From: an uncultured virus (IMG/VR IMGVR_UViG_3300046168_000009)
Taxonomy: Duplodnaviria > Heunggongvirae > Uroviricota > Caudoviricetes > Crassvirales
Length of the DNA: 20,000 nt
Virus record (IMG/VR): IMGVR_UViG_3300046168_000009
Direction: 5' to 3' (one strand)
In this document: positions 18,214-20,000 of the stretch, in pieces
How the letters are laid out: the number at the start of each line of letters is the position of its first letter
How positions within the stretch are numbered: position 1 is the stretch's first letter
Notes under the pieces: generated by a model
Database searches by the model: none
What the model saw: only the letters and a program-made list of their open reading frames with translations
Told to the model about the DNA's origin: nothing
Position numbers and translations under genes: made by a program

Positions 18214-18227
18214 ATTATTTTAATTAG

Positions 18228-18300
18228 GTGCGCAGGGTGGATTCGAACCACCGACCTCTAGCTTATGAGGCTAGCGAGCTACCAACTGCTCTACCGCGCA
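18228..18300 (-). tRNA. tRNA with CAU anticodon (Met/fMet-like); CCA not encoded
   Basis: Complete cloverleaf: UGCGCGG UA GAGC AGUUGGUA GCUC G CUAGC CU CAU AA GCUAG AGGUC GGUGG UUCGAAU CCACC CUGCGCA C. The anticodon is at 18265-18267. Confidence 0.93.
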
Positions 18301-19692: not shown

Positions 19693-19725
19693 TATTATCG
19701 ATTCTTCTTCGTATTTAATTTGTAA
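19693..19725 (-). promoter_or_regulatory. putative phage promoter, copy 2
   Basis: Reads TTACAAA TTA AATACGA AGAAGAATC GATAATA on the - strand, ending 20 bp upstream of the ATG at 19672. Confidence 0.65.
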
Positions 19726-19729
19726 TTAG

Positions 19730-19867
19730 TGGACGTGGCAGGAATCGAACCTGCGTTTTCAAAGGGTAATAACTATTGAGTGTTTTTAGTGGAGGGCTAA
19801 GAACCTCATACACTTGCATTATCACTCGCATTACTACTCGATACTTTGAGCTAACCATTTCACGCCC
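19730..19867 (-). ncRNA. 138-nt tRNA-like RNA resembling the tRNA-like domain of tmRNA (mini-tmRNA-like)
   Basis: 7-bp acceptor stem GGGCGUG/CACGUCC with G3-U70, discriminator A, canonical T arm GCAGG-UUCGAUU-CCUGC, and a stemless D loop containing GG. A long irregular helix replaces the anticodon arm. Confidence 0.75.
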
Positions 19868-19871
19868 ATAA

Positions 19872-19931
19872 AGCAGCAATAAGATGCGCGTCATTTACCG
19901 GTGTGTACCCTGACTTATACTTACTACTGCT
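19872..19931 (-). ncRNA. structured RNA hairpin upstream of the tmRNA-like element
   Basis: 12-bp stem AGCAGUAGUAAG/CUUAUUGCUGCU with two G-U pairs that form only on the - strand, and an inner stem GUCA/UGAC. Confidence 0.45.
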
Positions 19932-20000
19932 AAACCGCTTCACAACCGTGCACTACTATTTCAAGCTGTGGTTGTTCTTCACGTATTTGTAACTAGTGAG

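What the first reader, a model, noticed from the sequence alone, without database searches (positions are those of the whole stretch)
19730..19867. Miniature tmRNA-like RNA: alanine-identity tRNA-like domain with no pseudoknot/mRNA domain
Seen on the - strand: GGGCGUG-AAAUGGUUAGC-UCAAAG...CUUUGA-AAAC-GCAGG-UUCGAUU-CCUGC-CACGUCC-A. The acceptor stem has G1-C72, G2-C71, G3-U70 and A73. The T arm is perfect, and the D region has GG but no D stem. The anticodon arm is replaced by a roughly 95-nt nested helix (UCAAAG/CUUUGA, GUAAU/AUUAC, GAGUG/CACUC, AGUG/CACU, GAGG/CCUC) with no 7-nt anticodon loop. Established: G3-U70 plus A73 are the AlaRS determinants, and a stemless D loop with a long P2 helix is the tmRNA tRNA-like domain. 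Bacterial tmRNAs are about 360 nt with an mRNA domain and pseudoknots; versions lacking the mRNA domain are known mainly from some mitochondria. The usual UCGAC and GAC elbow elements are altered here (UUAGC, AAAC). Inference: this may be a phage-encoded alanylatable RNA that decoys SmpB, EF-Tu, AlaRS or tRNA-targeting defence toxins, or that rescues ribosomes without a degradation tag. A tiny frame GCA-AGU-GUA-UGA (A-S-V-stop, 19817-19806) follows AUAAU, but it is one base off the canonical resume context.
Basis: partly seen in the sequence, partly recalled or inferred. Interest (0 to 1): 0.85.

Follow-up and report, generated by a model that had tools for sequence, protein, structure and literature searches.

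The report
Phage mini-tmRNA carrying swappable RNA cassettes
This marine phage carries a real gene for only the alanine-accepting, tRNA-like end of the bacterial ribosome-rescue RNA (a kind known from one mycobacteriophage), and its long arm is filled with folded RNA cassettes that related phages swap, nest and also place outside it, which looks undescribed.

Summary
The element is real (19867-19730, minus strand). It is one of 111 distinct short tag-less tmRNA tRNA-like domains (TLDs) collected here, most from related marine, probably Bacteroidota-infecting phages. In loci chosen by a neighbouring protein, 46 of 47 keep G3·U70, 47 of 47 A73, and none is a full tmRNA. The kind is known (phage DS6A, reported to inhibit host tmRNA), and this scan has noted it on other DNA at least eight times. 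Two features go beyond that. First, most members, this one included, have a D-loop two bases shorter than host-type tmRNAs, so SmpB binding is open. Second, the long arm is not a tmRNA remnant but a slot for nested RNA cassettes. The window's middle cassette lies inside a TLD in 29 of 58 loci and outside in 29, and 83 bases of the insert recur unchanged in another scaffold. The TLD closes an early-region array of such cassettes. The Ala-Ser-Val frame, an intron and copying from rRNA or host DNA are not supported. Best reading: an alanylated competitor of host trans-translation that also carries exchangeable RNA modules. Expression, charging and cassette targets are not shown.

The parts
19730..19867 (-). 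TLD-only tmRNA-like gene, G1 to A73 (138 nt; 141 after CCA repair)
19861..19867 (-). acceptor stem, 5' strand (G1 G2 G3)
19850..19860 (-). stemless D loop with GG and the shortened 3' segment (UUAG plus C)
19844..19849 (-). base of the P2/H2-like arm, 5' strand
19813..19843 (-). middle cassette, 5' half; found inside and outside TLDs in relatives
19790..19812 (-). inner cassette (tip hairpin), replaced by about seven other types in relatives
19765..19789 (-). middle cassette, 3' half
19759..19764 (-). base of the P2/H2-like arm, 3' strand
19755..19758 (-). short variable loop (A)AAC, with the A equivalent to E. coli A334
19738..19754 (-). T arm
19730..19737 (-). acceptor stem 3' strand (U70 C71 C72) and discriminator A73
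19872..19931 (-). array unit directly upstream: 12-bp stem enclosing a recurrent cassette (z -3.35, 0 of 200 shuffles)
19932..19988 (-). second array unit, shared with relatives; fold no better than shuffles (z -0.60)
19989..20000 (-). 3' end of a second, non-alanine tRNA-like scaffold; the rest lies outside the window
19693..19713 (-). repeated early-promoter-like motif right after the TLD (2 matches in the window, 0.04 expected)

Best explanation
The gene encodes a tag-less tmRNA tRNA-like domain (DS6A type) at the 3' end of an early non-coding RNA array. Shown: the fold, its conservation, the alanine identity elements, the lack of a tag frame and the exchange of the arm's contents. Inferred: host RNase P and 3' enzymes cut it out and add CCA, AlaRS charges it, and it then competes with host tmRNA for EF-Tu and SmpB and for stalled ribosomes, lowering tag-and-degrade activity during infection. 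The P2 arm points away from the ribosome, so it tolerates any closed helix. Phages of this group fill it with the same exchangeable cassettes that make up the rest of the array, shuffled by recombination in shared flanks.
For: Loci chosen by the upstream zinc-finger protein: TLD in 56 of 80; of 47 distinct, G3·U70 in 46, A73 in 47, the A334-equivalent in 45; lengths 68-129 nt, no full tmRNA. Covariation in acceptor and T stems. The P2 base pairs 4 of 4 in 43 of 48 distinct end pairs against a mean of 4.5 when ends are shuffled. Relatives at the same locus with a host-type elbow score 53-66 bits on RF00023, above its cut-off of 47, and mixed elbows occur. DS6A's TLD scores 43.5 bits on a model built from 41 relatives. 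Passages of PMC4131195 and PMC11915505 report that the DS6A-type RNA inhibits host tmRNA, perhaps by titrating SmpB. Passages of PMC8363625 name A15, U17, C18, G19 and A334 as SmpB contacts and say H2 points out of the ribosome. No smpB in 5 near-complete related phages, so any SmpB is the host's. Cassette exchange.
Against: The window's elbow departs from all 30 host-type tmRNAs examined and the D-loop segment that contacts SmpB is two bases shorter, so SmpB may not bind. PMC4131195 says inhibition did not need charging, so titration alone does not explain the near-invariant G3·U70. 24 of 80 zinc-finger loci show no TLD within the DNA held (5 are cut short; others have array units without it), so it is dispensable in part of the group. 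No transcript ends, charging or binding are shown (one search gave contigs only). The host is inferred, not identified.
Confidence: 0.52

Rival explanations
1. The TLD is mainly a natural tRNA scaffold. Processing, charging and EF-Tu binding make a stable small RNA whose job is to display the cassettes, which are decoys or aptamers for host RNA-binding or defence proteins. The effect on trans-translation is secondary or lost in the derived-elbow form.
For: 36 of 91 inserts have a copy outside a TLD after one self-match is dropped (37 listed; shuffles 0 in 5 rounds, minus strand 0). Middle cassette 29 inside and 29 outside. A second tRNA-like scaffold in the same arrays also carries variable inserts (29 distinct versions). 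Arrays fold better on the sense strand in 71 of 82 cases and have 18 GNRA of 113 tetraloops against 6 of 88. Cassette loops stay fixed while flanking stems change. Laboratory tRNA scaffolds stabilise RNA placed at the anticodon arm (passages of PMC3753655).
Against: No cassette target was identified: no Rfam riboswitch, ribozyme, leader, antitoxin or CRISPR-repeat hit near its cut-off in 40 loci, no excess of rRNA words, no host copy. Cassettes stand without a TLD half of the time, so the TLD is not needed to carry them. Some members have almost no insert (66-72 nt).
Confidence: 0.24
2. Tag-less rescue: Ala-TLD with SmpB enters stalled ribosomes, accepts the chain and leaves with it, freeing ribosomes for phage mRNA without marking the protein for proteolysis.
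For: Near-invariant alanine identity fits a need for charging and peptidyl transfer. PMC11915505 (passage) notes that mitochondrial tmRNAs without a tag frame persist with SmpB and may help with incomplete mRNAs.
Against: The only experiment on the type reports inhibition (cited in PMC4131195 and PMC11915505; Mao et al. 2009 not seen). No release route after transfer is evident. The elbow is altered.
Confidence: 0.14
3. The TLD only punctuates the early transcript for RNase P and 3' trimming, and the cassettes are neutral or selfish hairpins, or DNA-level recombination sites, that accumulate where insertions are tolerated.
For: Cassettes assort freely and nest at hairpin tips. Closest copies are nearly identical, which fits recent exchange. 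The window encodes an ERF annealing protein and an exonuclease VIII.
Against: Processing does not need G3·U70, yet 46 of 47 keep it where an A-U pair would do. RNA-type loops and strand bias. Conserved unpaired loops with exchanged stems.
Confidence: 0.08
4. An ordinary tRNA with an intron, a tmRNA with a 3-residue tag, or part of the overlapping 59-codon frame (19715-19894).
For: An Ala-Ser-Val-stop frame and a 59-codon ORF exist in the window.
Against: No D stem or anticodon arm would result from removal. Contigs that skip the arm carry 23 or 30 other letters, none a clean joint. The stop is absent from 4 of 4 relatives with the same context; a canonical resume context occurs in 4 of 91 inserts. 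The ORF has no Pfam or PHROG match and insert lengths vary without regard to frame.
Confidence: 0.02

Closest known systems
TLD-only (CDS-less) tmRNA of mycobacteriophage DS6A (tmRNA Website tmID 11587; passages of PMC4131195 and PMC11915505)
   Same: Phage gene; G1 G2 G3·U70 A73; stemless D loop; short closed P2 arm; T arm; no tag frame; CCA not encoded; 43.5 bits on the family model.
   Different: DS6A is 83 nt with a host-like elbow and stands alone between two genes. This RNA has a two-base-shorter D loop, an AAC variable loop, a 91-nt arm of exchangeable cassettes, and ends a modular RNA array.
Standard one-piece bacterial tmRNA (Rfam RF00023), Bacteroidota type
   Same: TLD architecture. 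Sister elements at the same locus share the host-type D-loop ending in UUGAC and pass the Rfam cut-off.
   Different: No pseudoknot ring, resume codon or tag; host-type genes are 371-414 nt; the window element gets no RF00023 match.
CDS-less organellar tmRNAs (mitochondria; about 65-bp Mallomonadaceae plastid genes; passage of PMC11915505)
   Same: No tag reading frame.
   Different: Organellar, with a dedicated SmpB; no RF02544 match was listed for the window.
Engineered tRNA-scaffold expression system (passages of PMC3753655)
   Same: A tRNA-like core with a foreign structured RNA in place of the anticodon arm.
   Different: Artificial, keeps a D stem; here the scaffold is a natural tmRNA TLD and the inserts are nested and exchanged among phages.
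Phage RNA counter-defence elements: RNA anti-CRISPRs, viral sgRNAs, phage tRNAs (search listing; passages of 10.64898/2026.06.01.729453)
   Same: Small phage RNAs proposed or shown to act on host machinery; a possible analogy for the cassettes.
   Different: No sequence or Rfam link was found; the viral sgRNA preprint has no mention of tRNA, tmRNA, Flavobacteria or Bacteroides.

Membership tests
DS6A-type TLD-only tmRNA | 7-bp acceptor stem with G3·U70 and A73 | tested here: met
   46 of 47 and 47 of 47 in protein-selected loci
DS6A-type TLD-only tmRNA | stemless D loop, P2 helix in place of the anticodon arm, 3-nt variable loop, T arm | tested here: met
DS6A-type TLD-only tmRNA | no tag reading frame or pseudoknot ring | tested here: met
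DS6A-type TLD-only tmRNA | SmpB-contact bases of the elbow (A15, U17, C18, G19, A334 in E. coli) | tested here: inconclusive
   A334-equivalent kept in 89 of 91 and a conserved G near the D-loop end, but the segment is two bases shorter than in 30 of 30 host-type tmRNAs; register uncertain
DS6A-type TLD-only tmRNA | expressed, processed, alanylated, inhibits host tagging | not testable with these tools
   one search returned contigs only
Standard tmRNA (RF00023) | mRNA-like domain with resume codon, tag and stop | tested here: not met
Standard tmRNA (RF00023) | score at or above 47 bits | tested here: not met
   no match for the window; closest relative L001 32.3 bits
Two-piece (permuted) tmRNA | acceptor 3' strand precedes the 5' strand in the gene | tested here: not met
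   order is standard; RF04321 15 bits
tRNA, with or without intron | D stem and 7-nt anticodon loop, after splicing if needed | tested here: not met
   no clean joint
Bacterial Y RNA (YrlA) | match to RF02553; ends in the Ro60-binding stem, not the acceptor stem (recalled) | tested here: not met
   no match for the window; ends lie in the acceptor stem
ssrA attachment-site fragment of an integrating phage | 3' piece of a host ssrA, without a 5' partner | tested here: not met
   both halves present and co-varying; sequence differs from host-type tmRNAs; no integrase among 30 window proteins

The most novel reading that the evidence does not exclude
These phages keep a combinatorial library of RNA decoys: dozens of internal-loop cassettes, each a binding site for a host translation, RNA-processing or defence protein, are nested and reshuffled by recombination and displayed on two natural tRNA-like scaffolds, one of them the tmRNA head with an elbow altered away from SmpB. 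The array would be an RNA counterpart of a hypervariable counter-defence gene island in abundant marine phages.
Probability: 0.25. Interest if true: 0.85.

Novelty: new variant of a known kind. Interest (0 to 1): 0.6.

Why it matters
TLD-only tmRNAs rest in print on one phage gene and a few organelles. Here is a family of over a hundred natural variants with matched host-type and altered elbows, which makes it directly testable what such RNAs do to trans-translation and whether SmpB is needed. The nested, freely assorting cassette array was not found in the literature searched. If the cassettes have protein targets, it is a new format of phage RNA counter-measure and a natural version of the tRNA-scaffold method. 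Standard tools miss the window element, so such genes are under-annotated.

Tried and rejected
No whole genome is held for the window. Blastn against isolate phages found only T-arm scraps or a neighbouring tRNA. rRNA mimicry: 10-13 nt pieces of E. coli rRNA occur in the arrays (29 sense, 18 antisense), but shared words of 9-13 nt were within or near dinucleotide shuffles for Bacteroidota and other rRNAs; only E. coli 9-mers stood out (21.8 against 18.0 +/- 0.7 per 1000). Not supported, though a mimic made of two short strands would escape this test. Host origin of cassettes: two arrays against 201 and 301 genomes drawn around G003 gave T-arm hits, AT-rich hits, phage-type contigs in G003 and short scattered matches; five of these were read and none was a CRISPR spacer or leader. 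Host tmRNA interiors: 1 sense and 8 antisense rows of 12-13 nt. The host-type TLD head pattern matched 0 of 301 genomes, so the host was not narrowed. Recalled resemblances (preQ1-I riboswitch, ToxI/CptI antitoxins, twister, T-box, loop E or S7 site, type II-C repeats) come from no call and found no Rfam support. RF00023 scores of 32-41 bits for the derived subtype are weak evidence, since 77-nt host loci, probably tRNAs (not checked), reach 24-35 bits. Model R1 has no room for a long insert and aligned the window from 19829 (42.7 bits). Expression: 20 runs listed, 4 laid; summed contig depth peaks over the array in X1, X10 and X14 but not X9, contigs cannot rank depth and many phages share the cassettes, so it is not counted. 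The upstream zinc-finger protein has no family match at E<0.001. Sigma-70 and terminator scans gave nothing above chance. PMC10690425: readable supplements hold none of my motifs or contig ids, but its alignment archives could not be read and may contain some cassettes. Rows dropped: L092 unparsed; L076 parsed from an internal start and left out's P2 test; the L108 577-nt row is two TLDs; 13 of 120 stretches had no 5' partner.

Full report
Observation. It folds into a 7-bp acceptor stem with G3·U70, a stemless D loop, a 91-nt nested arm, a short variable loop and a T arm (z -2.68, 4 of 200 shuffles as stable). ARAGORN finds only a tRNA-Met at 18227-18300. Rfam gives no match at the element. 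The DNA after A73 is C-U-A, so CCA must be completed by the host; 27 of 30 host-type tmRNA genes also lack an encoded CCA.

Setting. The window is the early and replication region of a phage: amidase, ribonucleotide reductase, thymidylate synthase, primase/helicase, exonuclease VIII, ERF, a sigma-like factor and DNA ligase. The best isolate match of the primase is Cellulophaga phage phi10:1 at 43%, and the sequencing runs that hold the stretch and name a source are marine. A Bacteroidota host is inferred, not shown. The 8 matches in bacterial genome assemblies lie on contigs with the same array units or phage genes.

The family. A generic scan of 29 loci fetched by pattern or by two neighbouring proteins found the element in 24. 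That pattern fixed U70, C71, C72 and A73, so I repeated the count on 80 loci chosen only by the small zinc-finger protein upstream. A TLD follows in 56. Of 47 distinct sequences 46 have G3·U70, 47 have A73, 45 keep the middle A of the variable loop and none encodes CCA; lengths are 68-129 nt. In all 111 distinct short elements were collected. In 41 aligned members acceptor and T stems are paired in every cell, with changes on both sides at acceptor pair 4 and three T-stem pairs. The base of the arm pairs 4 of 4 in 43 of 48 distinct end pairs; shuffled partners give 4.5 on average and 13 at most. The gene is therefore under selection as a folded RNA with alanine identity.

Two elbows. Ten of the 47 have a host-type D-loop end (UUGAC); 32 have the shorter U(U/A)AG with AAC, as in the window; 5 fit neither. 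Host-type members score 53-66 bits on RF00023, the derived ones 33-41, and mixed forms exist. All 30 bacterial tmRNAs from the order of G003 have the longer segment and GGAC. Passages of PMC8363625 place SmpB on A15, U17, C18, G19 and A334. The derived elbow keeps the A334-equivalent and a G near the loop end but lacks two bases, so SmpB binding cannot be assumed. Five near-complete relatives have no smpB.

No tag, no intron. The Ala-Ser-Val stop lies in the innermost hairpin; the four relatives with the same context read through the rest of the RNA without a stop. Contigs from one RNA-labelled run join the same head and tail across 23 or 30 other letters and none gives a clean joint.

The arm is a slot for cassettes. 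Of 91 inserts, 37 match a same-strand copy in the flanks of a TLD; one is a self-match, leaving 36; shuffled inserts and the minus strand give none. Eighty-three bases of the window's insert are identical to the contents of a different stem upstream of another TLD in L115. A metagenome scan for the middle cassette gave 58 loci: 29 inside a TLD and 29 in at least four other stems (9 of the 58 cut short). It encloses about eight inner types, by eye, and seven occur both inside and outside TLDs. The TLD is the last unit of an array running 81-600 nt from the zinc-finger gene in 73 distinct cases, made of closed domains joined by linkers of median 3 nt and built from about 70 recurrent segments in changing order and depth. 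The arrays fold better on the sense strand in 71 of 82 cases, with median z -2.3 in the 28 tested (these sequences are related, not independent). Several cassettes keep their loops while the flanking stems change. The window holds two such units and the last 12 bases of a second tRNA-like scaffold upstream of the TLD.

What the cassettes are not. No Rfam family other than tRNA and tmRNA came near its cut-off in 40 loci. Word sharing with rRNA was at shuffle level apart from one weak excess. No copies were found in 201 and 301 bacterial genomes or inside host tmRNAs. Their targets are unknown.

Mechanism. The best-supported reading (0.52) is a DS6A-type competitor of trans-translation. Passages of PMC4131195 and PMC11915505 report that the DS6A-type RNA inhibits host tmRNA in E. 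coli, perhaps by titrating SmpB; the source, Mao et al. 2009, was not seen. PMC8363625 says H2 points out of the ribosome, which explains why the arm accepts inserts. Against this stand the altered elbow and the report that charging was not needed for inhibition, while G3·U70 is almost invariant here. That leaves room for a scaffold role, in which charging and EF-Tu binding stabilise a carrier for the cassettes (0.24), for tag-less rescue (0.14) and for a processing mark with neutral hairpins (0.08). Passages of PMC10542128 predict defence systems with SmpB-like domains that may recognise tmRNA, a possible target for a decoy; nothing here tests it.

Comparison and novelty. The RNA meets the structural definition of the DS6A kind and fails that of standard, permuted and Y RNAs and of tRNA. 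DS6A's own 83-nt gene has a host-like elbow and scores 43.5 bits on a model of this family. This scan has noted tag-less phage tmRNAs on other DNA eight times in one listing, so the core is not new. The shortened elbow, the exchangeable nested arm and the array were not found in seven literature searches, nor by word or sequence among earlier notes, apart from a cassette chain in a soil phage and a marine cassette system sharing 11 of 102 words. The alignment archives of PMC10690425 could not be read and may hold some cassettes. Verdict: new variant of a known kind, interest 0.6.

Papers seen: passages of PMC4131195, PMC11915505, PMC9004378, PMC8363625, PMC10542128, PMC3753655, PMC7198788 and 10.64898/2026.06.01.729453; abstract start, supplement list and supplement searches of PMC10690425; search listings only for the rest.

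Noticed in passing
window 19989-20000 (-); full copies e.g. L003 upstream of 7460, L012:7606-7722: A second tRNA-like scaffold in the same arrays: 6-bp acceptor-like stem, no D stem, variable insert, a co-varying hairpin with a GACG loop, T arm; 29 distinct versions; no Rfam match near a cut-off. More distant phages have related forms (L331, L341, L344, L354, L357).
   Followed up: partly
window 19829-19811 (-): The middle cassette matches the 5' head of another TLD subtype at 16 of 19 bases; 0 of 1000 shuffles reach 16 against 61 heads (noticed after the fact). It may be a decayed TLD head nested in the TLD.
   Followed up: partly
L003:6975-7160 and 173 viral relatives; upstream of the window: A conserved 62-aa zinc-finger protein ending in WRRK directly precedes most arrays; no Pfam or PHROG match at E<0.001. 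A likeness to TraR/DksA fingers is recalled and untested.
   Followed up: partly
L006:5413-5480, L017: A 68-nt member with A3-U70 and an altered variable loop, a natural non-alanine variant.
   Followed up: no
L108:48-144 and 532-624; L157: Two TLD copies in one phage, the first apparently decayed.
   Followed up: no
L055, L085, L073, L033, L082, L083, L106, L063, L089, L059, L070: Full-length tmRNA genes of 246-433 nt on viral contigs; the 246-nt one in L055 is unusually short yet has a tag-like frame.
   Followed up: no
L040:559-624: A minimal 66-nt TLD with a canonical elbow, 63.4 bits on RF00023, whose upstream DNA differs from the arrays of this group.
   Followed up: no
   Followed up: partly
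window 18227-18300 (-): tRNA-Met(CAT), present in 20 of 29 related loci and often next to the array.
   Followed up: no
L004:4646-4713, L009:4638-4694: Another small T-arm element upstream in two relatives that lack the TLD in the DNA held.
   Followed up: no
G002 (L159-L187): This assembled genome holds full rRNA genes of many unrelated bacteria and a phage contig; it is heavily mixed.
   Followed up: no
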